This document shows positions 8,147 to 49,800 of a stretch of DNA of 64,000 nucleotides, piece after piece. Both the position numbers and the translations under genes were made by a program. Source of the DNA: Amphiscolops sp. MND2022 (taxonomy: Eukaryota); NCBI GenBank assembly GCA_964187785.1, contig OZ076409.1, positions 7,132,001 through 7,196,000 on the forward strand, given 5' to 3'. The notes beneath the pieces are model-generated. The model did not search any database, had not been told where the DNA came from, and saw only the letters and a program-made list of their open reading frames with translations. Each line of letters begins with the position of its first letter. The stretch's first letter is position 1.

Positions 8147-8705
8147 ACAAGCCGGGAAGGGCATAATTTGGCGCCCGCTCATGGCTCAAGAAGAGCAGAA
8201 GTACTGCAAAGCGAAGAGGATTTTTCGTTTGAATAGTTTCGCAGTGTCAAAAAACCCTTGCCTTTGGGCTAAAGAAGCTTTTTGGCATTTATTCTGATTG
8301 GAAATATCAAAAAAAACGAAACGTTTCTGCTTCTTTTCCCACCAGAAACTAAAAAACCAAAGCGAGAACGTTTTTGTGAAGAGTAAGTTACTTAAAAACG
8401 CTCTTTCCTAGCCACCAATATGGAAAAAACGAAGGTCCCTTTTGGAATACTGAAATTTCTGTTCAAAAAAGTCTCACAGATCCAGGAAAATTCTATTAGG
8501 TTTCGAACACAACCTATTTGATCCGAATAAGTATGCGGAAAAGGAATGGAGAGAAACTTCCGACTATTTTGCCAATTTTTAGAATTTTTAAATAAAATTG
8601 TGGATGTCTTGGCATTTGGCATGAAACGGTCCCTTGAAAAAAAAGAAACAAGACGAAAAGTCACTATAATATTCACGTTTTATTACATGAAATGCCGACT
8701 AAAAA
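8147..8705 (-). mobile_element. HINE-like family 1 element (degenerate copy)
   Basis: Starts ACAAGCCGGGAAGGGC..TTGGCGCC and ends TGCCGACTAAAAA, the same termini as the copy at 37174-37595. Confidence 0.7.
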
Positions 8706-25800: not shown

Positions 25801-28800
25801 GAATCATAAATGGCCCAGATTATGATCAAACTAATTTCATAAACTTTTGTTGCCCACGCGGGTTGCTGTGACACGCAATTTAGAGAAAAGTTTTCAGATA
25901 TTAAGAATAGCCTGCTGCTAAAACCTGCTGTTAGAGAAAGCTGCTAAACCTTGATGATTGCGAACTTCATTCACCCCTCATTCATTTCACCCCACTTTCA
26001 TTTCACCCGATATTGTAATTATACAAAAGCGTCTCACGTTAATTAACCAATTAGCATTTAAACTTTATGCCTACTGTCTTGGAGTTAGCATTGAAGTTTC
26101 TGGCCGGTAGGAAAGTGTTTGCCGAAGGCAAATGGAATAGAAAATTTTTGCTGAATATTAGCAACATCCAAAATTGTAGATTTTGATTGACAGAAAGTTT
26201 TTTTTCTCAGCTCCTTGTTCCGAAGTATTACAATTCCGAGAAGCTAAGTTTTCCGGCTCCGATTCTGTGGTTCACGTAGCAGCATCGTTTGCTTATCTAA
26301 TTGGTAATTAGAACCAAGACGCTTTTCTATTACCGCTAAGATTGAAATTGGGTGGCAATAATCATTTATCTGAGACACATTTGATAATTTTAGTTTGGGG
26401 TAAATGAACGTGGGGTGAAATGATATGGGGTGAAATGAACGTGGGGTGAAATGATATGGGGTGAAATGAACGTGGGGTGAAATGATATGGGGTGAAATGA
26501 ACGCGGGGTGAAATGATATGGGGTGAAATGAACGTGGGGTGAAATGATATGGGGTGAAATGATACTGAACCTCAATATACAATCATTGAAGTGTATTCTG
26601 CAAGCAAATAAACCAGCAAAACTTGTGAAAAGCTACGAAAACTTGTCTAAAACATTAGTTGCTTCTCATTTGAAGGAAATTGATTCGAGTAAAGCTACGG
26701 GACCCGACGGAATTCCCCCTGTTCTTCTCAAAGAGATGAATCGTGAACTTAGTCATTCTTTACACGCTATATTCAAGAAAATACAGCAAACGTGCGTTTA
26801 TCCAAAAATATGAAAGTGTGCAACGATTGTCCCAGTTCATAAGAAAAACTCTAAAATCGAAGTCACGAATTACCGGCCTGTGTCCTTGCTGTGTTGCGTG
26901 TCCAAAGTCTTTGAGCGATGCATTTATACTACATTGTACAAGTTTCTTCGACCAAAGTTCTCAAACAGTCAGCATGGCTTCAGAAAAGGGAGATCCTGTG
27001 TAACTCAGCTTTTACATTATCTTGATCTGGTATTCAAAGGAATTGACAGTGGGTCGAAGGTCGAAGTTGTTTATACTGATTTCGAGAAGGCCTTCGATAA
27101 AGTAGATCATGGTATTCTTCTGTCCAAACTCTTCAGACTTGGTGTTCGTGGTAAACTGTTACGACTTTTGGAGAGCTATTTATCGGAACGGACATTTAGA
27201 GTAAAAGTAGGTGATTCTTTATCGACTCCCCGTGTCGTAACCAGTGGTGTCCCTCAAGGATCGCTCCTCGGGCCCCTATTATTCTTGGTATTGATCAATG
27301 ACTTTGCAGACTGCTGTGAATTCACCTCCTGTTTCCTGTGCGCAGATGATGCAAAATTGGTTTACATCGGCAATGAACCATCAGTCATGCAGCTAGATAT
27401 CGACAATATCGCTCTCTGGTGTTTTGAGAACAATATGTTTCTCAACGCTGATAAATGCACCCACCTTTCAATGGGAAAATCTTGCGAATATTTCCTTGCC
27501 AGTGACAAGCTGAATCTCGTCCCTAAACAAAGAGATCTGGGTCTCATTGTAGAAGGTTCTCTAAAATGGCATGAGCACATTGCTGAGAAATGTCACAAGG
27601 CCTTATCAGTCCCAATGATGATTAAGCGGAACTGCGGTACAATAACACTCGAGTGCAAAAAGAATGTATATAAAACAATGGTTCTCCCGATTTTGAGCTA
27701 TGGTTCACCTTGTTGGTTCGCCAGCGTCGATGGACTCAAGCGGCTCGAGCGGGTACAGAAGTATGCTGTCATCTGGATGTTAGGGAAATGTAATTACAAA
27801 ACTGGCTTGCTGACGACAAGTTTGTTACCCGTTTCATTGTACCTCCAATTGAGTGACTTACTGACCCTCTCCAAATCCATGAATGGTCAATATGATATTA
27901 TAAACGAGAATTTCGTCCAGTTGCTTTCACCAAATAGAGAAACTAGGTACTCGACAACTATGCATTTCGTGGTGCCCTTGGTCAGACGAGCTCTGTGTGA
28001 AACGAATTTTTGGATACGTTGCCCTAAGCTAGTGAATAGATTACCGACGTCTGTCGATTTCTTCCAGCCGATTGGTCTCAAGGCAAGGTTGCTTCGATTT
28101 TTCTGGAATTATTTTCGAAACACTTATGACCCAGATGTTGCTCATACTTGGAGGTTTTGAATTCATCTCGTTTGATTGATTGTACAGTTGTAAATCGGAT
28201 CAGCTCTTGCCCGGTTAATAGATAGTATCACGTGTCGTGTGCTATCTCTACCAACAACATTCCAAAATGTAGTATCACTGTTAAATTTATCTCCTAGTAG
28301 TAATCACACTTGAATTCATCTCGTTGGATTGATAGTGCAGTGGTAAGTCGGATCAGCTCTTGCCCGGTTAATAGATAGTATCACGTGTCGTGTGCTATCT
28401 CTACCAACAACATTCCAAAATGTAGTATCACTGTTAAATTTATCTCCTAGTAGTAATCACACTTGAATTCATCTCGTTGGATTGATAGTGCAGTGGTAAG
28501 TCGGATCAGCTCTTGTCCGGTTGAAAGATAGTATCACGTGTCGTGTGCTATCTCTACAATCAACATTCCAAACTGTAGTATTCGTGTGAGCCCCACAGAT
28601 TTTGTCAACAACCCTAATTTCGACTCTCTGGTACCTTTCCTGGATTCTGTTGATGATGTTTGATGATGATCAAGATTCCTACGCTATTCTATGGCGATTT
28701 TGAGTTAGGGAGTGATCCCTTCAGGTCAACTGATCTTGAATTATGATGATGAGTTATGTGCGATTTTGTCTTCTTACTTTTGGTTTGCATATTTTTGTTA

Positions 28801-31800
28801 CATCAGTTGCCTGTAAATCCATAATAATAATAATGATAATAAACTAATGAAGTATTCCACTAATTGAATAGAAATAGTTATAAGTAATAGCAAAAAGTAG
28901 AAATATTAAATACAGTATCGTCTTTTACAGGAAATGCCAAAAGCTGCATCACCTTGAAGGAACGTCCGTCGCCCGTGGAAGACATTTGGGTCACTAATCA
29001 GGGCAGAGACTGGGCAGAGCTCTGTTGGGACTTCGACGACCATGAAAAACTTCCCAAGGGGGTCTCGCGATCCGTGAAGCTTGTTTTGATCGACCAGGAT
29101 GGATTCCTTGCCAACTACGCCCGAGTAGACTTCGAACCCGACTACAGGTCTCTGTCTTACCGCATCCCATGTTGAGCTTCCCTTCAGAATCTGTACAAAT
29201 CTGCGAGCCAATTTTCTTTGAGGATCTGTAAAGATCGTGTCACTACTTCGTAAGGACAACTGCAGATCTGCGAGGATCTTCACTGATTTTTAAGGATTTT
29301 CTGTACAGATTTTTCAGGAACATTTTTGAGGATCTTCTGGTGAAACAATGTATTTCAATTTGGGTTTCTTCAACAAGTATTGCAGCTGACGGATTCGATT
29401 GCGACAGATCTGAACAGATTCGCAGGGAGTGCTCAACATGGGATAGCGACAACTCCTATCAAGCGAAAACTCATATCAAATTAGACAATAGGGTACAAAT
29501 ATCTAAAATTAGTTCTAAGAACAACTTATAATTAACTGCAATTAGAATTTTCAAAGTTCCTTTGGCATTATTTTGCTTTTGACGCGCTCTCCTCAACGTT
29601 ATTTTTCTGCAACCTTTTTGGATGAATGAAGTAACTATCCTTTACATTGATATTTACCATGAAATCATGTTATTTTACAATTTGTAAAACTTCGCTAATT
29701 AGCTGATGAATTATTTGGAATAAATTTTCCTAAATAGTTTTAATTTTCTGATATGAATTTTGATTGATAAGAGTTATCGCTTGATATGAGTTGTCGTTTT
29801 TTGAAATTAATATGAGTTGTCGCCTGATATGAGTTGTGGCCCAACGCTGTCTTGCTAATGGCATAGTGATTCTTCCCTGAAAGATTGTAATGATCTAGTT
29901 TTTTATTCGAGCTTTCTGGGTGATATCCGTAGGGATGTTTCGAACAAGATAGCATTGCCGACGAAAAGGGTCTTTCTTCTTCATTGAACAATGGTGAAAC
30001 TTTGGACAAAGATGAAATTTTATTTTCTTTGAGATTTCTGGACTCTTTTAAACTCGGCGTTTCTAGAAAAAAAACGAAAAAAGTTGTGAAAGTTTCAGTA
30101 TTCTGTTTCTTCTCATCAGCCTTGTAAATTTGACTATGGTTAGAACCGAGCAAAGATTTTAAAAATTCAACGGGTAAAAAACTCGGTTTCAGGACATTCC
30201 ATTATATGCAATTTCAACAGTGGCCATTTTCAACCATCCGCAATTTGAGCTGATTAATTTTGAATAATGGATCCCAATTATACTATAGTCAAATAATTAG
30301 TTTAGGTAGTCCTTATTGTCATGCATTTCTAAATTCAAATGTACTAATTTTCATTTGTACTAATAGTTTTGATATGTTTTGGTTTCTTCATGAAGGATTA
30401 CCATTAATTGAGGCTGTTTGATTCATTACTAAAGATTCAATTGTATTATTTCATTACAATCTTCAGTAAGGAATCAAACAGCCTTAATTAAAATCAATCC
30501 AATTTAATTTGCTAATAAACGAGTTGTCAACACCATATGATATATATAATATTTTTACAATACTTTTTTAACTTTTATAATTCCAAAAATTCCACGAAAG
30601 AATATTCCATATTTTGTAAATCTCATTGTAATATCTTTGATAAATTGTTGGGTTTCAATCATAAATAAACAGTTTCTTTGTAAATTTCTCCAAGCTTCAG
30701 TTCGAATTAGGTTTCTGTGCCGACTTTGTTGTCGTTATCTTCTTAATCAACTTTCTTCGCTTCAGTCAAATACTTCGGAAGGATTCGATTGTTCATTGCC
30801 TTAATTAATGGTAATTCTTCATGAAGAAACCGAAGTTCAACTGTAACTCAATTGAATAAGGAGTTAAGGTTGAAATTGCGGAAGGTTGAAAATGCAATAG
30901 GTTGAACTTGTGAACGGTTGAAACGGCAACAGTTGAATTTGCATAGGACGAAATATCGTGTAACCAAAAAATTCAACAATCACTTTGCTTCTCGCAGGGG
31001 ATGTCGAATCCAGGGTCTGATCAGTGAAAAGCTGTACGAAGTGATGCTTTTTGTGTGCGTGGGTGAAAAAAACATGAGCGTCCCTACCATCATCACAATC
31101 AGCCCCAAAGGTACCCTAGATTTCTGTTATGTATCCTGAATTCATTCATGCCTGCGTATACCCTAGCTGAACATTTACACGTTTGCTGCCAGAATCTTCC
31201 ATGTTTCATGGGAAGAAACAAGACCATGATGTGTTGGAAATGTATCAGGTAATTTTTTGCAAATTTTGAGGAAAATACTAGACATTTTTCTGAGGATCCG
31301 TTGAAGAATCTTGAGAATCTTGTAGAAAATATCTCGCAGTAAACTTCCTAGAGTTCGATTAGAGTATGCATGTATACTTCAGTTCAGAAGAAACTCTAAA
31401 TTGTTCAATTGTATAACGTTAAGAGTGATTTCGTCCTAAAATCGTCAGTTTGAAGCTGAAAATGCTTACTGCGAACGTACGCTGATTCGTCAGAAAAAAA
31501 TCTTTTCGGAAATCTCGAGCTTAAAAACTTGAGGAAAATGTCCAGTTATTCTAACGGCTATCTAATTTAAAAATGTTCGAGAATATTCTTCTTGACGCGT
31601 TCAAAAATACGAGAATGCGAAAAAAATGAAACCGAAGGAAGTAATTACTTTTGAACTTGACCGAATTTCCCAATAATCTCACAATATTCTTGCTAACATA
31701 CTTTTTTTCTCAATTTTTGAAAACATTGCACCCCTAATAACTATTTCGCGCCCGTTATAAACAAATTTTCAAAGCCATTACTGCGAAAAGGACTGATGTC

Positions 31801-34800
31801 TTGTGATTCCTTCCATTTGTGCGTTTAAACTAAATAATTGAAGTTGCAAAAAACCTTCAATTGATTTTTTAAACCTAATTATAGAACTAAGAAGCCAATC
31901 AGTTTATACTAGCAAAAAACGTTAATTTTTTAGGAATTGGAGAGGGGACTGAACATAACAGGGAAGGAAATGAAGAAGAAGAAGAAGAAGAAGAAGAAGT
32001 TTGGGTTCTAGGTCCGGAACTACAAGCAGAAATAATTCAACAAGGTGAATCAGGTAGGTTCAATGATAAAAACAAAGAATATTAACAATAATACACCATT
32101 TCAAACGGATTTTCGCCCTTCCCAAATTCAATTTCGTCTTGGTTTTAAGTTTTTTTGTCAATTTATTATAAGTCCAAATTAAATAGGACGTAATTGGTTT
32201 CACGGAAGCCACCGCGACGAATTTGATTTTGGCTCGGACGAAATTGAATTTGGGAAGGACGGAAATCGGTTTGTAATGGTGTAATTCTAGTTACAAGAGG
32301 GCATAAATTATAGAAAATATTTTAACATGAAGAATGTACACTGCAGCCCCTGAAATGGACCCCTAAGAGCACTTGGCTTTTGAAGAGGGATCCTTATCAA
32401 TGGAACAAAAGTATTGTTTTTTTTGTGTGTGGGTGGGTAAAAATAAATATAATAATTATAATGTGTGGATAAAGATCTTATAAAGAATAATTTAGTGTCA
32501 CCTTTGACTTAACGGATCGAATAACTCGAACGTGTTTTTTTAAAATTCCCAAACAGTTTCTGCCAGAAACTGTTTGGGAATTTTAAAAAAGTGGAGTTTG
32601 ACAGAGGAGCTATTTTAATGTGACGCAATTTTAAGAAAAGGCCGACGATTTTGAGCATTTTCGTTGGTTTTCAAGTTTGTGAAAGTGACCAAAAAAGTTC
32701 AACAAAAGTTTTATTTTAATACTAGCGAATTGACAGATTTTTAAAAGCATTTCGATAAGTTACTGTACTCTAACTGCTACTAGGCCTAGAGGTTACCTCT
32801 GATTTCTTGAAGACGATGTCTGAGATGAAGAAAGAGTACGTGGGTTCGAGTTTTGCACTAAACCAGAATTTTATGCTTACAAAAGTAAAGGGAAGACCAG
32901 AGGGCCCCACGCTCGGTGTTTTTTCGGCACTATGTGACTTTTCGAGTTAGGGTGAAAGTGGTTTTCGTGTCTTTTTTGATGCAATACCTCACAATTGATC
33001 CAAAAATAGTTTCATTTGATTGCACTAAACTAGAATTTTATGCTTACAAAAGTAAAGGAAAGACCAGAGGGCCCCACGCTCGGTGTTTTTTCGGCACTAT
33101 GTGACTTTTCGAGTTAGGGTGAAAGTGGTTTTCGTGTCTTTTTTGATGCAATACCTCACAATTGATCCAAAAATAGTTTCATTTGATTGCACTAAACTAG
33201 AATTTTATGCTTACAAAAGTAAAGGAAAGACCAGAGGGCCCCACGCTCGGTGTTTTTTCGGCACTATGTGACTTTTCGAGTTAGGGTGAAAGTGGTTTTC
33301 GTGTCTTTTTTGATGCAATACCTCACAATTGATCCAAAAATAGTTTCATTTGATTGCACTAAACTAGAATTTTATGCTTACAAAAGTAAAGGAAAGACCA
33401 GAGGGCCCCACGCTCGGTGTTTTTTCGGCACTATGTGACTTTTCGAGTTAGGGTGAAAGTGGTTTTCGTGTCTTTTTTGATGCAATACCTCACAATTGAT
33501 CCAGAAATAGTTTCATTTGATTTACAAGGGAGCTTGTGTATTGATTGTGGGCCCAAAAATTTTGATAAAACATGACTTTGGAACTCACAAAGTAGAAAAA
33601 TTTGAAATTCATCTCTAAACAAGAAAAGCCTCAAGATCCCACGCTCATACAAGGCTGAAGTCATTGCGTCTATATACACAGTGCAAAAATGTTTGAGTTG
33701 AAAATTTCAAATTACTGAAAGGAATTTTCGGCAAATTAGTCAATTTCGTACCAAACAAGCCGGGAACGGCATAAGTTGGCGCCATATCTAAGGCTTAGAA
33801 ATAGCAAAAGGACTTCAAACTGTCAAGTATTTCTTACTTCACAAGTATTCTTTACAAGTAGTCAGTACCTGAAAAACCCAAGAAGTTTGACCAAATTTGC
33901 AAGCCGGGTGCCCGCTAGCGGGCCCCGGCGCGCTAAAAGTGGGATCTTTTCGGATTTATAACATCCATTGTTACAAAACGTCTAAAAATTGAAGGGGGAC
34001 CATTTCATGATATTTTTTTCGAAAAAAAATCTAAAAGTGCTGAAAAAATGAAAAAAAACTAAAAGGGGGACCCTTCAGTCTGTCCTGGTATTGTATGTTA
34101 CGCGGAAAAACATAAAAAAACTTTTTTGGTTCAGTTCGCTAAGCCAAATGTTGCAATTTGGTCTCATGAAATTTCGTAGAACTTTTAAGAACTCTTTCGG
34201 TCAGTTCGTGTGGATTGAAAAAAAAGAGTCACTATAATAGTCGCGTTTCAGTTCATGAAGCGCCGACCAAAAATACACGAAGCTTATAAACATGTATCTA
34301 AATAAAATTAGAATCATTTACAGTGGTGTGAGGAAAGAACGCGACCCCGTACAAAATTTTATCGAATTGAAGTCAGATCAAAAATATAACAAAACGTATC
34401 CAAAAACGAAAAAAAAATGCAAAACGTACCATCACGTAGAAAAAAGTGTAATATTTCGTCGGATAGCTTCTTCTTGCAACAACTAGCTGCAATCGTCGAG
34501 ACATTAAGAGTTTTAAAGTTTTACAATGTACTCAACCGGAATTTTTCGAATTCTTCGTGTGCATAAGTCCAACGTTCTTCCAGGTTCTCCGGATGTCTTT
34601 TACAGTTGTTTTTCTTCAGGACACTCCACACATTTTCGATAATGTAATGCTGAGATCAGGGAACTGTACAGGCCAATTTTACAGTAAAGTAAACCCATTT
34701 TTTGTTTTTTTTTGTTTTTATCAATGTATCGGCTGGGGCATTGTCTTGTTCATGCATATAAAGGAAGTCTAGAAGATGATCTTTGAGAATTTTGGTGTAC

Positions 34801-37800
34801 TTATTTATCATACTTTGGTTTTAGCTGCGAGCAAATCGAAAGACATAGACAAACAGGATATGACTTTTTCTGGAGATGTACCTTCAAGAGACGCTTCCGA
34901 GTGTTCAACTGAAGCTGATTTTCTACAGGGTTGGTTGAATCACTTCTTCACTTTTCATTTCAATAAACAACCCAAAGTTACAAAATCCAGAACTTTTTTC
35001 TGGCATTGCTTTATAATTTCGGCTCTCAACTCTGTTATTGTAGATTTGAAAACATTAAAAACTGACTAACCTTGACATGTCATGCAACCGAGGAGGGGGG
35101 AAAATTCTATGACCTTGAATTACTTTCTCCGAGCATTTGAGGATAACTCCCTTCGATGCTTCAGACGAAAAACGATATTTTAATGTGAAGACGAATCCCC
35201 ATGGATGTACACTGTACTGACACCCGATGGCATTCCATCCATGGCCAGTCTGGTTTTCCATCCATGGACAGTCTGGTCTTCCATCCATACCAGTCTGGCT
35301 CTCCATCCATGGCCAGTCTGGTTTTCCATCCATTCCAGTCTGGCTCTCCATCCATGGCCAGTCTGGTTTTCCATCCATGGCCAGTCTGGTTTTCCATCCA
35401 TACCCAGTCTGGTCTTCCATCCATACCAGTCTGGCTCTCCATCCATGGCCAGTCTGGTTTTCCATCCATGGCCAGTCTGGTTTTCCATCCATACCCAGTC
35501 TGGTCTTCCATCCATACCAGTCTGGCTCTCCATCCATGGCCAGCCTGGTTTTCCATCCATACCAGTCTGGCTCTCCATCCATGGCCAGTCTGGTTTTCCA
35601 TCCATGGCCAGTCTGGTTTTCCATCCATACCCAGTCTGGTCTTCCATCCATACCAGTCTGGCTCTCCATCCATGGCCAGTCTGGTTTTCCATCCATGGCC
35701 AGTCTGGTTTTCCATCCATACCCAGTCTGGTCTTCCATCCATACCAGTCTGGCTCTCCATCCATGGCCAGTCTGGTTTTCCATCCATGGCCAGTCTGGTT
35801 TTCCATCCATACCCAGTCTGGTCTTCCATCCATACCAGTCTGGCTCTCCATCCATGGCCAGCCTGGTTTTCCATCCATACCAGTCTGGCTCTCCATCCAT
35901 GGCCAGTCTGGTTTTCCATCCATTCCAGTCTGGCTCTCCATCCATGGCCAGTCTGGTTTTCCATCCATGGCCAGTCTGGTTTTCCATCCATACCCAGTCT
36001 GGTCTTCCATCCATACCAGTCTGGCTCTCCATCCATGGCCAGTCTGGTTTTCCATCCATGGCCAGTCTGGTTTTCCATCCATACCCAGTCTGGTCTTCCA
36101 TCCATACCAGTCTGGCTCTCCATCCATGGCCAGCCTGGTTTTCCATCCATACCAGTCTGGCTCTCCATCCATGGCCAGTCTGGTTTTCCATCCATTCCAG
36201 TCTGGCTCTCCATCCATGGCCAGTCTGGTTTTCCATCCATGGCCAGTCTGGTTTTCCATCCATACCCAGTCTGGTCTTCCATCCATACCAGTCTGGCTCT
36301 CCATCCATGGCCAGTCTGGTTTTCCATCCATGGCCAGTCTGGTTTTCCATCCATACCCAGTCTGGTCTTCCATCCATACCAGTCTGGCTCTCCATCCATG
36401 GCCAGCCTGGTTTTCCATCCATACCAGTCTGGCTCTCCATCCATGGCCAGTCTGGTTTTCCATCCATGGCCAGTCTGGTTTTCCATCCATACCCAGTCTG
36501 GTCTTCCATCCATACCAGTCTGGCTCTCCATCCATGGCCAGTCTGGTTTTCCATCCATGGCCAGTCTGGTTTTCCATCCATACCCAGTCTGGTTTTCCAT
36601 CCATACCAGTCTGGCTCTCCATCCATGGCCAGTCTGGTTTTCCATCCATACCAGTCTGGCTCTCCCTCCATGGCCAGCCTGGTTTTCCATCCATACCAGT
36701 CTGGCTCTCCATCCATCGCCAGTCTACATTCTGATCATAGAGAAAAATTATAGATTTTCTTGCAAAGTCATTTCATCTAATTCTGTAATATCTTGTTAGA
36801 AAATGCATTATATGACACTAACGTTTCAAGATTCTTGTAAGATTTGCAAACTCCAGCTGAAAACGATTCAAAAGATGCATTAATTTTTTACAAAATTCTT
36901 TCCAAAGTTGCATCGTTCAATTTAAGGAAATGATGTGGGAAAGTGCAGCTTATCAATCCAAAATATATGAAAGCAACAAATGGTACCATTTCTAAGGAAA
37001 ACTATTGATGTGTGTTTACAAGTTCGAAACCAAAATAAAACAGATATGATAGAAGTAAGATGACATTAAACTTTTGTATTTTTTAAGAACCTGTGACTGA
37101 TGAAAAGAAAGTGAAAGTAGAAACGAAGTCGCCAGTCGGAGGCAAGAAGGAATCGGAACCAAAGGAAGGGGCAACAAGCCGGGAACGGCATAAGTCGGCG
37201 CCATATCTAAGGCTCAAGAATAGCAAAAGCCGTCGAAGTCTCAAGTATTCTTTTACAGTACGAAAGTTGGGCCGAATTGGCAAACCGGGGGCCGCTAGCG
37301 CGCTAAAAGGGGGACCCGTTTGGATTTTTTAACATCCAAAAAAATGAAAAAAGTCTCACAATGCCGAAAAAACTGAAAAGGGGACCCTTTATTCTCTCCC
37401 GGTATTGTATGTTACGCCGAAAAAGAGGAAAAACGTTTTTAGTTCAGTTCGCTAGGCCAAATGGTTCAATTTGACACCATAAAATTTCGAAGAACTTTTA
37501 AGAACTATTTTGGTCAGTTCATGTGGATTGAAAAAAAAATTTAAAAAGAGTCACTATCATAGTCGCGTTTCACTTCATGAAGCGCCGACTAAAAAGGGAA
37601 AGTTTGAGCCGAGAGAAGAGCAATATGAAGAAAGAACAGAGGAATGATTTGAAAGGGGCCGAGATCGAGTCGGCCTATCAGAGGATGGTAGAAGAGCTGG
37701 CAGTCAGTGGTCACATGCTATCTACATGTTGGTTTGTACTTTTTAAAGTACCAACTTTGACTTATAAATACAGTAATAAGTTAATATACCTTCTTTTCAT

Positions 37801-40800
37801 TCTTATTCGTCAAAACTTCAAGAAAGTTAGACAATCTTCTTTCAAATGAAAAAACTTCAAGCAGTTTAATGAGACTTCAAGCAAATTGGACAGACCAAGT
37901 TTGGTCGGTTTTTCATCCAATTTCCGCTTCAAATTAGCGGTTTCAAGCATGGCAAGCATCAAAAGAACCGATATATGACTAAAATGTATCTATTCAAAGA
38001 ATTGATAATTCACTTGAAGTTTGTCGAACTTGGTTGGAGTTCTGATCAATTTGAACTAAGTTATTGCTGTAGTTCAATTTGCTTGAAGTTGTGTCTAAAT
38101 TGGTTGTCCACATGAAATGAAGAAAGGCATAATAGAAGTTTAGCAGAAAGCAGATCAGACAATCATGATAATATTCCTTTTGCTTAATTTCCAACATACA
38201 CCTAGTTATAATATGATCCCAATCATTACACAATATATGCGTTAACGTTTTATTAAAGATACGGAATTGAGCCAATTTTAGGTTGAAAATTATTGTCTTG
38301 TTTCCACTTTTCTCTAATTACGCTCGATGATCACAATTTCGTATTACACGATACGGTTCGCTCTCGTTTTACGGACAAAAACACTTCACACTTAATGATA
38401 GGTTCCACTTTTCCGGCGTATGTATCGTAATGATAGAATTTCTTTATTTTTCAGTTGGTCACGAATTAGGAATTAACTTTCAGCTGGTTAAAAGGTACTA
38501 AAATCGAGAGTCAGTTCATGGAATTTTCAGAGACAAAAACTGTTTCAGCTGTGAAGAAAAGCGTGAGTCCAGAAAACATTGAAATAACTTATGATGGCGA
38601 GCGGGGCCACCTGAGCGTAGACTGGGTCAGTTGTTCCAGCAGCGACGCGATAGTTCATTCTGAGTCCAGTGCTGGTCAAAAGTATCTCTACCGAGTCAAA
38701 ATCAAGGTTGGTAATAATCCATAATCGAATTGTGTATTTTTAGTCGGCGCTTTTCTAGTGAAAGGTGCCCGACTATTACAGTGGCTAGTTTTTACCCCAG
38801 ACCACAGAATTCACCCTGTATGTACCTCTTTTTGTGCACTGTACACGTTTACCAGAAGTACTTAGTACTTGGTTTGGAACGCATCCAAAGCCTCTAACAT
38901 GAAATACAAAACCATTGCAGAGCAGAAGGGTCCCCCTTTCCAATTTTTGGCCCTATGAGACTTTCCCCTCCGCTTTTTTCAGTGACTAGTTTTTTCGTCA
39001 GACCACAGAGCTCACATATTAGATACCACTTTTTAGTGCAGCTTTAATCGGTTTAGAGGGAACCCAGCAGTTGCGGGTTTAAGTCCCCGCTTCAGAAACT
39101 TTTTCGTGAAACCAGAAACGTTTTCGTGCATTTGCGGAACCGGTCGAGTCTGAATGAGTCCCCCTGTCACCATTTTTTAAAGCACTGTGCGACTTTTTTA
39201 CGAAAAATTTTTGATGTCTCCCCTTTTCAATTTTTGATATTTTTGCAACAAACTGAATTTTCAAAAATCCAAAGGGATCATCCCTTTCACAACTTTGGGA
39301 ATTGTGAGATTTTCCAAAATGAATAATTTTCGTCTTAAAATTTGGATTTCTCAGTGTACAAGCACATTATATCCGAATTTTATTTTTTTAAGACCGTCAA
39401 AAAGTAGTTCCCGAGTCTTATCGAGCATGAAAGGCACTCTTCGGGTGTGTCGGAATTGTTTTCTGCATTATTCATAAAATCGTCCTGGGCATATTTTTAA
39501 AACTTTGCGCTTTTTGAAACTTAGATATGGCGCCGACTTTAGACGTTCCCATCTTGTTAAGCATAGTTCGTGAACTTACTAGCGACGTTGATCAACTTTA
39601 TGTTTTTTTTCGTCATGCGAGCATGAAAAGCTGTCTCATACGCATGAAGAGATGTCTCATTGTCAAGAAGCTTATACTTGTTTTCGGGATTTTAAAAATT
39701 GAATTTGTCAAAATCTTTCAACCTTAGTGTTTTTTTGGGATAGAAACATTATTCACGAAGTAACACATTCTCTCTATTGGCTTAGAGTTTCTTGCATAAT
39801 CTAATTTCAAGTGACACGCGACTATACTAGTGACTTTTTTTTCAATCCACACGAACTGACCTAAATAGTTCTACAAAGATCTGTGAAATTATAAGGTGTC
39901 AAATTGGACCATTCGGCTCAAGGACCTGAACTATAAAAGTTGTTTTTTTCAGCATAACATACAATAGCGGGCGAGACTAAAGGGTCCCCCTTTCAGTTTT
40001 TTTGGCGTTTTGAGACTTGTTTTAATGTCTCCAAAGGGTCACCCCTAATTTCTTTTGATACTTTGCAACAGAATGGATGTTAAAAAACCGAAAGCGCGCG
40101 AACCCATTTTTAGCGCGCCAGGGGTCCGCTCCAGTGGGTACTCGCGGCTAGTTCGGTCATTTGAGTTTTCGAAAGTGCTTCGAAAGCTTTTTTGTGAGTT
40201 TGTTCATGAAAAACGTCCTGAGCATATTTTATAAAATTCCGCTTTTTGAGCCTTAGGCATAGCGCCGACTTATGCCGTTCTCGGCTTGTTTTTCACGACG
40301 TTGCTAAATTTGACGAAGGTAAAAAAACGCCTAAAATTTCGAAGCAAGATACGATATTAGTAACATCGGCTTCTCAAATCAATATGAAACAAGACGCCCG
40401 TTAAGCACCGGGACATCCTCCGCTAAAAATGTAACGAATCAGCACGGGTACGAACCCACGACCTCGTGTCTGTCAGGCAGACGCACTACCAACTGTGCCA
40501 TGGTGACTAGAATTTACAAAATAGTCAAGTGAAGATGGAGATTGTGGAGATTTGGCAGAATTTGGGAAAAAAACGCAACACAGAATATGATTTTCCTCCC
40601 CCATTATGATTGGGCGGAAAATAAAAACTATTTTCATCAGCAGAAATATCCCCTGTATTGCAGTACCCTGGAAACAATGGGGAATTTGTGGAAGTTACGA
40701 AGCGGACCCCTCAAACCCATCTGGACCTGCAGTTGCCGCCGGGTGTCGCCAGTGCTGATGACATCCAGGTGTCCATCTCAGCCGAGCCAGTCCAGAAGAG

Positions 40801-43800
40801 AGGGGGTGTCAGAATGGATTCAGAGGGATCCATCTCTTTCTCAAGCCGTAAGAACCTTCACACTTCTCATACCTGTCAGCCTTCAAGGAAAACCGCATGT
40901 GCTATAAAAGTGTCGGAAACGGATTAAAATATTCAAAAACTAATGACTTACTTTACTGTCACTTGGTCATTTTGAACTAATTTTGGCCATGTTTTTCAGA
41001 TGCCATTCATACGATTTTAATGTAATGGTACACGTAGGAGCACCTTTGGATACAATGACTGTGCTAAATTTGATGAAAAATTGTATGGACAATTTGAGAA
41101 AATTGAGATTTTCATTGAAAGGTCGGTAGAAAAAAGGTACGACTGCATTGGTAGTCGAAAATTGTTTCCGATTCCTAAAATTGGATTTGACTGACACTCT
41201 TTTCGATTTCAAATTATAACAGAATCGTATAATCAGAAAAAATATCTTTCGGTACCTTTTGTCGTTTTGGTGTCACGATTTTTGACACTATTCAAAGCGT
41301 TTTCGGGACCTTTTTGATGAACTAAATTTCAGAATTTCTGGCATTTGAAAACGAGAAAGTACGCATAAAACGTAAATAATTTTGCAATTCCTGTTCATCT
41401 GCCGTGTTCGATGTTGGTAACGCAAAACCCACAATAAGCGCGGACCTTATCTAGCTCAGAAACTTTTTCTTGCGAAGAATTTTTCAAGTTTTGCAGGGCA
41501 CAGTCTTGCTTCGTTGGTTTTCCATTGAGGATAGGCTAGGCTACCAAAACTGTACCGTTGTAATTCTGATCACAATTTGAGAGACTTTTGCTGCTGAGAC
41601 TATTTTAATAATATCAATATATTGAAGGATATTGCACTTTGAAAAGTGTCGTTAGTCAAATCAACTGTCTTAATTTTTTGGGTCTTAGCTTTTTTGGAGA
41701 GCACAAGCGCTTTTGGTGCTAATCATCACTTTATACGTACGAGCGAACAGACAAAGAAAAATCATCGCTTTTTAGGAGTCGAAAAAAATTCTTTTCTCCC
41801 GACCTTTCAATAAAAGTTTCAAATTCATCAAAAACTGTCCGTACGATTTTCATAAAATTTTGCACAGTCATTTTACACCCAACGGTGCTCCTGCGTGCGC
41901 CCCAAAATCGTATGACTGAGATCTGAGAAACATGGCCAAAATTAGCCCAAGTCACTGAAAAACGGCCATTTTTGGACTTTTTTTATTTTCTCAAAACTGC
42001 CCATACGATTCGAAAGAAACTTTCTACAGTCATTCTATACCATATCAGGGTCCTATTGTGCAATCCCATCAAATTCCTAATAACTGGGATCTGAGAAACG
42101 TTTCTAGATCGTTCCACAAATCTTGTGCTTAAACTTTAAACCGCAATATCTCCTAAACTATTGAAGTCCGACAAACGATTTATAGCGCGTTTGAAAGAAG
42201 AGAATCAGGGCTTTCAAATCAATCTGGACTGGCCTAGGACTTTGCGCCAAAACTTAGCACGCTTCGTGTCTCTGACTGCATTTCAGCATGTTTGAAAACA
42301 TGCTAGATCCACTTCGACCCAATCTTCATACCAGTTGGATAAAGTCGCCACAAACAAAAACTGTAAAAACTGAAAATCTGCGTACATTTTTTTTGATTTT
42401 TTGGCCCCGTTTACTTGGGTTTGGAGACCTCATGTCAATATTCCGTGAAAAGACGTCCAATGCTGTGTAATATCGTCTGAAAATCAAATTCAAGAGTTTT
42501 TGTTACCATATGGTCAGCTGGTGGGTTTAGAAGTTTGCAGAAAGTAACTGGTACGAAATCGTACCAATGGTCCATTTAGGGTTAAAGATCTTGTTGACCA
42601 ATTCTTAGATCTAGTTTTCAACTTGGCCGCCTTGTAGAACATTTCAAGCGACCTGCATTGCTACTTCAAATGAAGAGTAGTTTTGATGTCTTATTCAGGT
42701 CAAAAAATGAACTTCAACATTTTCTTCAAAACCAACTTTCATGTTTTTAACCTAGAAGTTTTGCGTAATAGAATCAATGAGATGTCTCAATTTTACTTAT
42801 ATCTTAGGTTCTTATCTTTATCGAAATTTCGTTCATTGAATGCGAGATTTTTGGTTTTACATTTGAGCTCCAGTAGAGGTGTTTGTTTTGGGTTAATAGA
42901 GCACGACTACAACCTAAGCGCAAGTAACAACTAACTTGGGTTTTTACCGAGCGATTGCGGAGCATTTGACGCGTGAAAAAATCAACTGTTTCTTATATCT
43001 TTCTGAAACATTTTTGTTGCGTTCTCTTTCGTGTACGGTGGCAACTCAAATCAAGCGACAAGTCATATCAGGCGACACCTCATTCCAGGCGACAACTCAT
43101 AGCAAATTGAAGAAGCGACAACTCGTATCAAGCGACAACTTTTATCAATCAAAACTGTTTTTAGAGAATTAAATCCTGTTTAAAAAAATCAAAATAATCA
43201 TTTTAATTATTTTATTAAATATTTAGCGATAATTAGTTGAGCAAATATTTAGAAATTATAAATCCAGTGTCATGGATAATCATGGTGCAGAGAAAATAAT
43301 CTTTAATATAGCGTATAAAATGAGAAGTTTATCTAAATAAACGTTGGAATCTCTAATCGTAGTTAATTCTAAATGTTTTTGAAGATTAATTCAGGTATTT
43401 GTAATTAGGTATTTTTAATTCATGTATTTAATTAAATACCTGAATTGAAAATACTTAATTAAAACACCTGAAATAAACTTCAAAAACATTTAGAATTAAC
43501 TGCGATTAGAGATGCTTAATGCTCAAGCCTAAAGGCAAACCTGATATAACATGTCGCTTTTCCCGGTTGATATGAGTAGTGACTTTTTTGATTTGATATG
43601 AGTTGTCGCCTGATATGAGATGTCGATATGCCCTTTGCTCTTCTCCAGATACCACATACAAGACCTTGAAGAAGTCTTCCACTGGAACGGTGGTATCACT
43701 TTCACACAGTCGATGCTCGTTGCGAGAAAAGATGTCGACAAGTGAAGGAGAAGGCAATGGAAAGGGTCTTGATTCCACGATGCAGACACTTCCAAGTTCC

Positions 43801-46800
43801 TGGAAATCAGAAACAGAACTGCATCAAGTATGTCCACAGTTTTATGACTTTTTCCTGAATTGTAAAATTCTTCTTGATTCCGCAATGGGAAAAAAGGTGG
43901 TTATGTGAACTTCACTATTTTCCATTACGCACGTTGACACAGCTACACCATCCAGGCATAGACCGTCTTGACTGACTTACGCTGAATGACGATTTTCAGC
44001 GATGAACAGATTACGCTGCCTGAGTGAAACCCATTTTATCGGGATGTGTCTCGTAATGAAGAAAAAACGTATGTAACGTAGGTAAATATATTTGCAATAT
44101 TTGGCAAAACCGAAATAAACAAACTAAACGATGCAATGACAGTTTCTTTTTGACAGTTTTCATTGATATTGCATACAAGAAATGAACATCAATCAACCTC
44201 TCAGTGGATTTCTTTCCGTATTTTGTCTTCCAAGTTTTTACTCAAACGACAGATACTCTCTCGCAGAGCTGAACGAGTAAAATCAGGTTTGTAGCATACA
44301 CAGTTCAAATTTTAAGAAATTACAGGGAGAGAAGCATGGTGTAGTGGTAAGGGCATCCAGGAGCAGTGTCAGGTTCGAACCTCTCTCAATGCATCATTGT
44401 TGGGGCTTGAGCAAGTCCTTCATCCTGAGCTTAGTGGTGTGATCAATTACAAAAACAAAAAGAACAACGATGAGCAGTCAGACCTTTGTAACCTTGAGCA
44501 AGTCACTTTGAAACTTCAGCTTCCAGCCGACTATTGTTTGACCACTTGGCTGCAAATATGGCACCGTAGCTTGCTAGGGAGAGATAGTAGTAACATAAAG
44601 GGCGCCGACTTAGAAAAGCAGAACGGCTTGTTCGGCGACTACTCCATTTAATCGGGGAGCTTAGTTTTTTTAATTTAGAAACTTCAGGAAACCAATGTAA
44701 CCAAAACATTTTCTCAGTTTGAAGAAAATATCCGGAGAATTTAGCAAGAAAGGTAAAAGGGACATATTTTGTTATAATTTTTTCCACTAATTTCCATAAA
44801 AGTTTGGTGGTGGGGAAGATAAGAACTCGAGAGAAGCAGCAGACTAGGGGCAGACATTGCCGTTTTTAGCCGGCGCATTTCGGAGAAATCTACTTATCTG
44901 GCGTTTTAAATTTATAGGATGATGACTTTAGTATATACCAAAGTTTGTATCAAAACTCATTCGAGTTAAGCACCCCTTATGAGTTGTTGCCGAAATTATC
45001 GCAAACTTGCTGAACATTTTCGCGATTAACAAAACATGTAGCTTTCTGTCTACTATCTTCATCAATGATTCATAGATTGTCACCGTAGCCATGAATTTGA
45101 ATGTTTTCATCTTGGGGAGAATGTAATGAAAATCATCATGGATGATTATCCAGGATTCAAATTTAATTTGAAATTATCCATGTTTATCCATGAATTTGAA
45201 AGTAGTGCCGTGAACTAAACTAACAATGGCCATGAAATGAATGCTGCTTTTCTTTCCTCTTTCTTTCTATTACAACCACTCATTTTATTTCCTAAGACGG
45301 AGTTCGAATTTTTTGCACTGACTTCGAGCTGTGCTCGGCTTGTTCAAGTTTTTTCGTTAACAAACTTTTGATCTTAAAAATTAATAAAAAAACTTTTTTA
45401 CCGGTGTACTTTTTTGTATTTAGTTGCAATGTTTGTACGGGATGCAGGAGAAAACAGCCGATTTTAAAACGAGACAAAACAAGCGATTTTCAAAACGAAA
45501 CAAAACAGCCAATTTTAAAACGAGACAAAACAGCCGAATTTCAAAACGAGACAAAACAGCCAATTTTAAAACGAAACAAAACAGCCAATTTTAAACGAGA
45601 CAAAACAGCCGAATTTCAAAACGAGACAAAACAGCCGATTTTCAAAACGGGACAAAACAGCCCATTTTAAAACGAGACAAAACAGCCGATTTTGAAAACG
45701 AGACAAAACAGCCGATTTTAAAACGAGATAAAACAGCCGATTTTCAAAACGAGACAAAACAGCCGATTTTGAAACGGGACAAAACAGCCGATTTTCAAAA
45801 CGAGACAAAAGAGCCGATTTTCAAAACGGAACAAAACAGCCGATTTTCAAAACGGAACAAAATGAGTGCTGTTATAGCCAATATGCATGAAACTTGATTT
45901 ATTTAAGAGGTTAGTATATTTGTTGTATGGCTCGGTCGCTTCGCTCCCTTCGTCAAGTAGCAACATTGAGGCATGGCCATATGGCACGTCGCTCCGCTCC
46001 TGCATTTAGGACACTAGGTGTATGTGAAAATAGCGGACTACGTTAGAATAATTATTTTTTTGACTGCTAATTTCACACATTGACAAAATCGGCGAAAATA
46101 CTTCTTTATTTTTACCAATCGGCAATTTTGTACTGTTTTGAAAATCGACTGTTTTGTCCCGCTCCCGTTTTTACAGTCAAGGAATACAATGCAGTTAAAC
46201 TAAAGACATGAAATTGTGTACTTTCATACCTAGCAAATGCAACGATTTCAGGGGCCAGAGCAACTAGCTCCAGAATCCAGGAAGCTGGAACCTCCCAGAA
46301 AGAAGTCTGATCAAAAGTTGAGGAAGGATTCTCGGAAACTGAGTTCTCGCACATCTTCCGATCTTAGCAAGACATCTTCTGACAGCCTCCTCGAAAGTGA
46401 GTAGAACACAAACAGGAGATTAAAACTTTCTCGAAAACGAGCAAATGTGGGGGTAATATCTAGGTTGGGAGAATGGTGAAATAGAGAAAGACAATTTTGT
46501 GGGAATACTTTTAAAAACTGCATGCTGCCTGATTGGAGACATTTAATGCCACCGATTGAGATTATATTTTGGTGATGATAAGTTTTCAGGTGAGTTTCAA
46601 TTTTGAACAAATGGTTTGAAATTCTATCTTACGCTTTTTGATACTTGAGCTTTTTCAGCTTTTAGGTTGACGGATACTTCTAGGTATTTGTCTCCCTGTA
46701 TACAACTGGAATATTGTTGTCTGGCTAACTTGAACTATAAAATATTGGTTTTCTTGTTATTGGCTGTGGCTGCATTGACTAAGAGCTTGAAAGGAGTTGA

Positions 46801-49800
46801 AACGTTCAATTTTTTCCAAGATTTTTCCCAGGTATTTTATTGGATAATGTTGAAAGATTTTGCAACATCAAAAGTTTTTGAATTTCAGATCGTTTGCTGA
46901 AAATGAAGTCTTTGTCGCAGATAGACACGAACAAAGAGAACTCTCAGGTAACTCTTTCTAAAACCATTTTTTATTACTTATATTCTATTACTTATGCAAT
47001 CGTACTTTTTTCCTCAAAAACTCTCGATACGATCTGTATAAAAATTTAGCAGTGTCAATCTACGCCCAAAGGTCCTCCTGCGTGCGCAATGACATCAAAA
47101 TTGTATGACTGGGATATGAAGAATATAGCCGAAATTAGCCCAAAATGACCAAAAAACGGCCAATTTTGGACTTTCTTCGATTTTCTCAAAAACTGTCCTT
47201 ACAACAATTCATTTTAAATTTGTTTTCCAATGTTTGGATCCGTTTCCGACTACTTTACCGCACATGCGGCTCTGGTTCCAATCTTTTTCTGGTTGACTGC
47301 GGTTAGCATTGTTTGCTGTTTGTGTATAGGACCGAGAGAAAGCAACAAAGTCTACATCCTCCAGTGGAAAGTTGCCTCGGAGGGCGTCTTTTCCTGCCGA
47401 TTCCACAACCGACAGTGCATCAAACACTTATTTCGACATGTATGTACCATTTAAAGTAAATTAACGTCAAAAATGTTGAAATAGATTTTCGATTACCATA
47501 TTATGCAGTTAGCAAGCTTAATATTCATGGAAGAAATTGGAAGCTTTGGTAAAGTCTTGCAAACGAAGACACATTTCGAGATATTGATTTTCAGAGACCC
47601 TCTAAACGTTCTTTAAAGAAGTCAATGTTTAGCAAATAGCTTCCAGAAATGCTGGTATGCAATAGGGAATAACTTGAGTTACAAATTGGGGATTTTTTCA
47701 AACCTTTTTTCAACCAATAAACATTTCAGACATGTGAAAAGACGAGGCAGCTTACTCACCTCAAAGCCCGGTTAGAAGTTTCAAATAGAACATCAAAGAT
47801 CTTGAAAATAGTCTCTCATTTTTAGTCAGCGCTTTTCTGGCAAAAGCCGACAATAGATAGCAGTGAATTTTTTAGCACCAGCGAACTGACAGTTTTCTAA
47901 GTTTCTACCAATTTCTTCAGCTGTAAAGCAAGGGTGAGTGTGCGTGGGTTCGAATCCCTGGACGGACAACTTTATCTGATTTTCACAAAAGTAAACCAGA
48001 GCAAAGAGACAAACGTTTTTGAACCCTTTGATTTTTTGGGCATTTCGCGACTTCTTTTTGCGAAAATGTTTTAATTTCATCAAATGGCACCCTTTTTGAG
48101 TCTATACTAGCGAGTCTAAAGAATCTCCTTTTGGGTTTTTCGGCACTTTGCCACTTTTTTCAAAAAATATTTTGGAAAAATGTTTTCAAAAAATTGGGTT
48201 TCACTTTCTTCCACCGTTGCTCCACTGGTTGAAAACGGTAGACTTTTTCCAAACAAAACACTGAGTTTCAGACATGGTTGCATATGGGAAGTTTGATTGA
48301 TTTGAATGTTTTTCACGTTTTCTTCGGAGGTTTGCATTATTAACTGATGCAGCATTAAGATCGTTTTTCAGGAGAGCCTCTTGTCACACCGCTATATAAG
48401 CAATAGTTTCTTAGACTTTTATCTAGTTTACAAATATGCTTGTTTGAAAATTAAGCGATGAAAATTGTAAGAGTTACGATACTGCCAATTTTAGCCAAAT
48501 TTTGGTTGCTGTTCTTGCAGATTTCTCAGACAATTCGCAAGTATCGGAGACGAGTGAGACGCCATCTAGGGCAGTTGCCAAACCAACTCAAGCCCCGCCC
48601 CCAGCTTTGACCGGGTTGAAGTCCCTGGACAAATTCTACCCCAAACCACCTGCTACTGCAAAACCGGTAATATTATTATTGGAACTTTTTCCTTTCCCAC
48701 ACACTTTTCTATGATATTGTTCTGGCAATTAATTTGCTCTCAATTGAATTTCCAACGAAATAGTTCACGTAACTTCATGTGGAGACAACAAAACTAAATA
48801 AAAGATTTTATATCTGATTTATATGCACTGTCTTTTATATCTCATTTTGTTAAAAAAACTCGTTTAATGTATAAAATTACCCAAAACCTACTGGAATAAG
48901 ATCTGAACTCACTGAAAAAGCCACAGGAAAAAGATCTGAAATTACCAAAAAACCACTGGGATAAGATCTAAAATGACTGAAAAAAACACCGGAATAAGAT
49001 CTAAATTCACTGAAAAACCACTGGAATAAGATCTAAAATCACCGAAAAAGTCATTTGTTCAAGTCTAAAATTACCGAAGAACCGAGGAAATGAGATATAA
49101 AATCAGTGATAAAAAGCACTGGAATAAGATCTAAAATCACCCAAAAAATCACTGGAGTAATATATAAACTCATTGGATAACCAATGGAAAATGATTTTCG
49201 GACACGATTTGAAATTGCAAACAGGGTTTACAGATACTTCAGTACCGGTCCCGATAATTTTCTTACTTTGTTTCGCTTTGATGCGTCAAGGGCGCGAATA
49301 ATATCTAAAGGTCTTTCGTGTAGTGAATTTTTCAGTTGCTAGAAATTTTGAACGAAATTTTCATTTTTCGGTGGGAAAGCCTCCACGTTAGCTAATTTTC
49401 TCCCACCGGTGGCCATCGGTGTCAGTACGGGCAACTTATATCTGATTTTTTTTTCAAACAGAAACGGGTGAAGAAAAATGCAAAACCAAAGAGTCGGACA
49501 GGAAAGAGAAGCAAACAAGCACCAGAAAAAGTGTTCATACCTCCAGAAGTTGTCAACAGCAAGTCAAGTAAGTTTTTATTTTTTGACTCCTATTGAAAAA
49601 ACCATCATTCAATAGAAACAAGTCGGGAGTCGCGCCAAGTCGGCGCCATATCCAAGGCTCAAAAATAGCAAAAGGACATCAAAGTTTCAAAGTATTCTCT
49701 TCTACAGCATTAAAAAAATTTTGAAAAAAGTCTCACAACGCCGAAAAAAATTGAAAGGGGGGACCCTTTGGGATTTTTCTATACCCAGTCTGTCACAAAC

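What the first reader, a model, noticed from the sequence alone, without database searches (positions are those of the whole stretch)
37088..37727. Helentron-like element inserted inside a coding exon, with an in-frame splice-out route
Seen: a family 1 element (37174-37595) splits an exon whose halves rejoin as EPKEGA(K)RESL. Read-through stops at 37332. However, a GT in the element's subTIR (37194, phase 2) and the AG formed by its A-tail plus flank (37595-37596) define a 403-nt intron that restores the frame (..EGATSRERHKESLS..). All downstream exons remain open. Inference: this is a recent null allele, a skipped exon (its outer phases are 1-1), or intron gain from a rolling-circle element, similar to Introners. 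Both candidate splice sites are weak.
Basis: partly seen in the sequence, partly recalled or inferred. Interest (0 to 1): 0.7.

Follow-up and report, generated by a model that had tools for sequence, protein, structure and literature searches.

The report
Helentron fragment breaks a worm-like gene
A short copy of a very common rolling-circle jumping element sits in the middle of a likely protein-coding exon and most likely just damages the gene; the proposed route for splicing it out as a new intron uses an acceptor site weaker than any of 57 inferred introns of this genome, so this is probably ordinary.

Summary
Coordinates, stop, GT, AG and the in-frame 403-nt route are all real. The element (37174-37594, minus strand) is a HINE: subTIRs, hairpins, TT target, and an intact 2304-aa Rep/helicase partner sharing both ends. 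Its flanks score as coding.

Intron gain is not supported. Against 57 introns inferred from this genome's myosins, the AG scores -12.1 bits (lowest true -1.0). The route ranks 52nd of 93 open in-frame routes. The G that makes the AG is depleted among copies (596 of 3531), and 0 of 152 other copies have coding-like flanks.

A second, ~99.5% identical copy across a scaffold gap (likely the other haplotype) also carries the insert, so there is no empty site. The copy is ~5% from its family consensus. Exons near it look unconstrained between the two copies, unlike the gene's ends, and the next exon's best acceptor closes the frame.

Verdict: likely loss of function, with exon skipping the main rival. 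No RNA run was listed.

The parts
37174..37594 (-). 421-bp non-autonomous Helentron derivative (HINE), antisense to the host gene, in a TT target
   Evidence: ends fixed by 80 full-length copies; at least 3531 exact matches to one 29-nt end variant set
37582..37590 (-). 5' subterminal inverted repeat, after a T-run and nested in a hairpin (about 37560-37591)
   Evidence: hairpin z -3.2; shared with the autonomous partner
37193..37201 (-). 3' subterminal inverted repeat; on the + strand it holds the candidate donor GT 37194 (-1.2 bits; 3 of 57 true donors lower)
   Evidence: GT present in 145 of 154 copies
37178..37189 (-). 4-bp 3' terminal hairpin
   Evidence: in the MFE structure; z -1.55 for the 46-mer, not significant alone
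37088..37173 (+). 5' half of the interrupted predicted exon (E6), acceptor 37086 scoring 5.6 bits, phase 1
37595..37727 (+). 3' half of the interrupted predicted exon; donor 37728 (2.9 bits, phase 1) or 37732 (1.6 bits, phase 2)
37330..37332 (+). first in-frame stop on read-through into the element
38453..38706 (+). next predicted exon (E7); strongest acceptor 38453 closes the frame, in-frame acceptors 38482, 38493, 38529 are weaker: possible second lesion
34825..34929 (+). preceding predicted exon (E5), phase 1-1
28931..51820 (+). predicted host gene fragment, about 15 exons, about 720 aa, mostly low complexity; first exon FN3-like as a lead only; 5' end not found
   Evidence: exons conserved between the two copies; Atlas 0.88 to fn3 clusters, not confirmed

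Best explanation
A 421-bp non-autonomous Helentron copy lies antisense inside a predicted coding exon, puts a stop in its frame, and likely knocks out or strongly reduces the gene rather than being spliced out as a new intron. It would have been pasted into a TT target by the Rep/helicase of its autonomous partner (inferred). The exon's own splice sites are intact, so the likely main transcript includes the whole 640-nt exon, stops at 37330 and would be degraded by nonsense-mediated decay (inferred from general knowledge, untested). Both assembled copies of the region carry it, so the sequenced animal likely has no insertion-free allele.
For: Shown: stop at 37330-37332. No acceptor near the element's end is usable: 37595 -12.1, 37561 -7.2, 37581 -4.5 bits against a lowest true leave-one-out score of -1.0; with an 8-nt model 37595 is -8.5 against -5.6. 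The best of 93 internal in-frame routes sums to only -3.6, while the outer sites score 5.6 and 2.9. Between the two copies, exons in the 14-kb block around the insert differ as much as non-exon DNA (5 of 1103 vs 44 of 11154; four of five change the protein), whereas exons at the gene's ends differ 4-6 times less (13 of 935 vs 256 of 4362; 16 of 1095 vs 132 of 1512); five differences against 0.7-1.0 expected, P 0.001-0.004. The next exon's best acceptor closes the frame; only 1 of 57 true acceptors has a 3.5-bit stronger AG within 80 nt upstream. 0 of 152 other copies have coding-like flanks.
Against: If the insertion is as old as its 3.5-5% distance from consensus, neutral decay should have left 4-5 lesions in the six neighbouring exons; the chance of at most one is 0.03-0.09 (0.29 at 2%). 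Recent variants are purged less, and with an exon/non-exon ratio of 0.5 the five differences give P 0.07. A 640-nt exon is twice the longest of 37 myosin exons measured (318 nt), which favours skipping. Exon skipping to 38495 or 38531 is open. The exon model is mine, has no homologue or transcript behind it, and was chosen to stay open. One other model exon (47728) also has a 3.5-bit stronger AG upstream.
Confidence: 0.55

Rival explanations
1. The gene still works because the enlarged exon is skipped or cut short: E5 joins the next exon at 38495 or 38531 (loss of 73 or more residues of a low-complexity linker), or a donor inside the element (37266 or 37194) joins acceptor 38482.
For: All four routes are open and use sites in or near the true range (34930 4.1; 38529 1.7; 37266 1.1; 38482 -1.9, or 1.3 in the short model). 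Both copies carry the insert. Neighbouring exons are intact although the copy is up to 5% old (neutral survival 0.4-1.8% at 3.5-5%). Joining the interrupted exon to 38531 would make a stop, joining E5 to it would not.
Against: The stronger acceptor 38453 must be bypassed. The interrupted exon keeps good outer splice sites. No sign of constraint in the central exons between the copies.
Confidence: 0.3
2. The segment was already dead or is not an exon of a working gene, and the element landed in unconstrained DNA.
For: No homologue found, no Pfam family, 5' exons not found, and the frame problem at 38453 could predate the insertion.
Against: Coding score of both halves, phase-matched splice sites, and strong conservation of the outer exons with only in-frame indels, 6 and 3 nt.
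Confidence: 0.1
3. Intron gain: the element is spliced from GT 37194 to AG 37596, leaving six extra codons, as an introner would be.
For: The geometry is fixed for the family: 20 element bases kept and 2 host bases lost give +18 nt whatever the element's length; GT present in 145 of 154 copies; donor inside the true range (3 of 57 lower). Introners that co-opt a host site and add codons are described (PMC9860276, passages). The insert is in both copies.
Against: Acceptor lower than all 57 true ones and than 86% of all 3472 AGs in the window; all 73 G-flanked copies score -8.9 to -14.6; neither site has moved from the family sequence towards the splice consensus; G after the A-run is 16.9% against 28-30% background; 0 of 71 other G-flanked copies are coding-flanked; the route also needs a weak downstream acceptor.
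Confidence: 0.05

Closest known systems
HINE / DINE-1 non-autonomous Helentrons (PMC4067079; passages on structure, target sites and classification read)
   Same: subTIR a few bases from a T-rich 5' end, second subTIR plus short hairpin at the 3' end, 5' hairpin nested on the subTIR, TT target, no target duplication seen, variable T number, very high copy number, autonomous Rep/helicase partner with the same ends
   Different: The strict inverted match between this copy's ends is 9 bp (12-15 in the paper) and lies about 20 bp from the 3' end (38-60 in mite HINEs). The interior is not a simple deletion derivative of the partner found.
Introners, including the helitron-derived family of Suillus subalutaceus (PMC12130899, PMC9860276; passages read)
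   Same: Mobile element in an exon with one splice site carried and one offered by the host, and a few codons added
   Different: No evidence of splicing, unusable acceptor, and no population of exonic copies; introners are defined by many spliced copies
Ordinary transposon insertion alleles causing nonsense or exon skipping (recalled, no call)
   Same: Premature stop inside an enlarged exon; possible rescue by skipping a symmetric exon
   Different: None shown

Membership tests
HINE (non-autonomous Helentron) | subTIRs near both ends, the 5' one 2-4 nt from a T-rich end | tested here: met
   37582-37590 and 37193-37201; four T before the 5' one. 9-bp perfect match, shorter than the 12-15 bp of PMC4067079
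HINE (non-autonomous Helentron) | short hairpin near the 3' end | tested here: met
   4-bp stem 37178-37189 in the MFE fold; stem kept with changed bases in the partner; z -1.55 alone
HINE (non-autonomous Helentron) | TT target, no target-site duplication | tested here: met
   78 of 80 copies have A at one end, 68 of 80 an A5 run at the other; flanks differ. No true empty site was available, so inferred from copies and frame restoration
HINE (non-autonomous Helentron) | autonomous Rep/helicase(/endonuclease) partner sharing at least 11 identical bases at the subTIRs | tested here: met
   2304-aa ORF with PF14214, PF05970 and weak PF03372 (E 0.0025, below cut-off); unit of 11 kb at C10 and C1, 99.5% identical; 13 and 14 identical bases at the two ends. 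10 Rep/helicase loci examined; one has both ends, one more a nearby 3' end
HINE (non-autonomous Helentron) | partner has the Helentron S (not Helitron L) between G and P in Rep motif 2 | tested here: inconclusive
   the partner has neither residue pattern at that place
Introner | many copies lie in exons as introns | tested here: not met
   0 of 152 other full-length copies (0 of 71 with G flank) have coding-like flanks on both sides; sample limited mostly to C1 and C2
Introner | usable, consistent splice sites carried or co-opted | tested here: not met
   donor marginal; acceptor below all 57 true sites; G flank depleted
Introner | splicing shown in transcripts | not testable with these tools
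   no RNA holder listed

The most novel reading that the evidence does not exclude
This HINE family has a built-in, length-independent splice-out geometry (+18 nt, always in frame) when it lands antisense before a G in an exon, and this site is a real new intron made by a Helentron in an animal, fixed in both haplotypes and using an A-rich acceptor.
Probability: 0.05. Interest if true: 0.55.

Novelty: new member of a known kind. Interest (0 to 1): 0.2.

Why it matters
As most likely read, it matters little: one more transposon-damaged allele, plus a well-defined HINE family with an intact partner that is useful for repeat annotation of this genome. If the splice-out were shown, it would be a case of a Helentron making an intron in an animal with a non-standard acceptor; helitron-derived introners are already reported in a fungus (PMC12130899), so it would be a variant, not a new kind.

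Tried and rejected
RNA: no RNA holder listed, so no reads could be laid; this is not evidence either way. Empty site: both flanks occur only twice in the assembly, both with the insert. Homologues of host exons: none; one search gave one repeat-driven hit, dismissed on inspection; Pfam gave nothing under E 0.03 for 8 segments. FN3 identity: Atlas lead 0.88 for the first exon and nothing for E7; an FN3 profile from 30 domains of this genome scored no better than shuffles; single-sequence model all-beta, pLDDT 65, no PDB match at E 0.001. So FN3 stays a lead. 5' exons: not found in 109 kb upstream at my threshold. Acceptor 37561 inside the element (in frame from E5): -7.2 bits, rejected. Sharing of the insert by two copies as proof of age: rejected, the block is only 0.4% diverged. 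A younger, near-identical donor copy: not among 40 scored of 5399, 1707 and 363 candidates. Earlier scan notes: none near, none by sequence or words. Literature searches for a Helentron or DINE-1 intron; only listings seen except the four papers cited; none of the listings described one in an animal, which is not proof of absence. No supplements were read; the introner datasets of PMC12130899 may hold animal rolling-circle cases.

Full report
Setting. The window is C1:7,132,001-7,196,000 of a 1.07-Gb animal assembly. I did not identify the species; a myosin exon had named hits at 55-67% identity and one unnamed hit at 84%.

Observation. From 80 full-length copies the element is 37174-37594: 68 have five A at one end and 78 an A at the other, which fits four element bases plus a split TT target, and joining 37173 to 37595 restores the frame. 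A codon model trained on 10.9 kb of this genome's myosin coding sequence scores both halves best in the predicted frame (+6.5, +12.5 bits) and the element at -104 to -112. The site and its twin are the only 2 of 154 rejoined family sites passing a two-sided test; 3.1% of random AA sites and 81% of training windows pass. The flanks are therefore probably exonic, though no transcript or homologue confirms it.

The element. On the minus strand it has a T-run, a subTIR nested in a hairpin (z -3.2), a second subTIR and a 4-bp terminal hairpin, as described for HINE/DINE-1 (PMC4067079, passages). Two patterns for one end give 596 + 2935 exact matches. Of 10 Rep/helicase loci fetched from 152 matches, one 2304-aa ORF (PF14214, PF05970, weak PF03372) lies in an 11-kb unit present at C10 and C1 at 99.5% identity whose ends share 13 and 14 bases with the element's ends. 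That it moved this copy is inferred. The copy differs from the consensus of its 30 closest sampled relatives at 19 of 369 positions; the best other copies were 92-95% identical, with only 40 candidates scored per search. So its age is at most about 5% divergence and at least the 0.2% since the two regional copies split.

Second copy. The region recurs inverted at C1:7.28-7.43 Mb. The homology is symmetric about a 200-N gap at 7,274,404 and the second copy ends near another gap, the pattern of a retained haplotype (10.1101/2020.05.22.110833, passages); a true duplication is not excluded. Both copies carry the insert and the flanks occur nowhere else.

Splice test. I aligned myosin proteins to 11 myosin loci and kept 57 of 73 junctions whose GT/GC-AG pair won by 8 or more points of protein score; 16 were dropped as ambiguous and widely spaced exon pairs were skipped. 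True acceptors are T-rich with at most two A in the six bases before the AG. An 8-base model agrees (-8.5 against -5.6). In its favour, the geometry is a family constant: 20 element bases kept and two host bases lost give +18 nt, and 145 of 154 copies keep the GT. But all 73 G-flanked copies have acceptors at -8.9 to -14.6, the G is depleted (16.9% against 28-30% in a 498-kb sample), and 0 of 152 other copies look exonic (90 of 596 G-flank and 50 of 2935 C/T-flank places fetched, from C1 and C2, plus copies from other loci). The matrix rests on one gene family and 57 sites, and some modelled host acceptors also fall below its minimum (47728, -6.7), so it is a guide, not a limit.

Host gene. 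A chain of about 15 exons from 28931 to 51820 gives about 720 mostly low-complexity residues. In the blocks where the two copies are 6-9% apart, exons differ 4-6 times less than other DNA and have only in-frame indels (13 of 935 vs 256 of 4362; 16 of 1095 vs 132 of 1512), so the gene has been under selection. In the block around the insert (0.4% apart) exons differ as much as other DNA (5 of 1103 vs 44 of 11154; four of five change the protein); P 0.001-0.004 under the outer ratio, 0.07 under a ratio of 0.5. The next exon is a problem for any intact model: its best acceptor (38453, 5.2 bits) closes the frame by all three routes tried, the in-frame ones are 3.5-7.1 bits weaker (1.5-8.6 in the short model), and 38531 makes a stop when joined to the interrupted exon. 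This may be a second, one-base lesion; it is inferred. Against the null: at 3.5-5% neutral divergence the chance of at most one lesion in the six neighbouring exons is 0.03-0.09, which suits a younger insertion or rescue by skipping. That test is partly circular and ignores recombination.

Mechanism. Most likely (0.55) the enlarged exon is included, translation stops at 37330 and the message is degraded. Rescue by skipping or a shortened exon (0.30) has four open routes. A dead or non-exonic target gets 0.10 and intron gain 0.05. Shown: anatomy, stop, scores, counts. Inferred: exon status, transcript fate, haplotig status, the partner's role. No RNA run was listed.

Comparison. It is a HINE by the features tested, except the Rep motif residue, which was inconclusive. 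It is not an introner: two defining features were tested and not met. Helitron-derived introners and introners that co-opt a host site and add codons are in print (PMC12130899; PMC9860276; passages only), so even the bold reading is a variant of a known kind. Interest 0.2.

Noticed in passing
G000:C1:7150000-7270500 versus 7277100-7425900 (window 17800 onward): Inverted second copy of about 120 kb mirrored about a scaffold gap, with identity in blocks from 85% to 99.6%: likely a retained haplotype, so copy numbers in this assembly need care.
   Followed up: partly
L333:3731-L334:4689 (C10) and G000:C1:7344433-7358754: Intact, 99.5% identical 11-kb Helentron with a 2304-aa ORF; a weak JAB/MPN hit (E 1e-4) at its N-terminus, tandem repeated 5' ends at C10 and a 3.4-kb internal tandem duplication at C1.
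   Followed up: partly
window 38453-38530: Strongest acceptor of the exon after the insert closes the frame; the best coding frame changes between 38455-38492 and 38495-38530: possible frameshift shared by both copies.
   Followed up: partly
window 35228-36725: 1.5-kb satellite with a roughly 23-bp unit inside the intron before the interrupted exon.
   Followed up: no
window 32853-33522: 167-bp tandem repeat, four copies here and about 28 in the second copy.
   Followed up: no
window 26814-28160: 448-aa open frame that looks like a LINE reverse transcriptase (by eye).
   Followed up: no
window 18291-25967: Decayed LTR retrotransposon-like block with 1.4-kb direct repeats at 81% identity.
   Followed up: no
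window 1-7576: Tandem duplication with a unit of about 2977 bp, 97-99% identical.
   Followed up: no
G000:C1:71.6-76.5 Mb: Cluster of about 15 near-full 2375-aa Rep/helicase ORFs, all on one strand.
   Followed up: no
L123:1868-5917 (C4) and L124 (C11): A myosin with a 1350-aa intron-free frame, and another whose two inferred introns both use GC donors.
   Followed up: no
window 8147-8705, 16051-17187, 33754-34273, 39809-40290, 49617-50016: Further copies or pieces of the same HINE family, several inside introns of the predicted host gene.
   Followed up: partly
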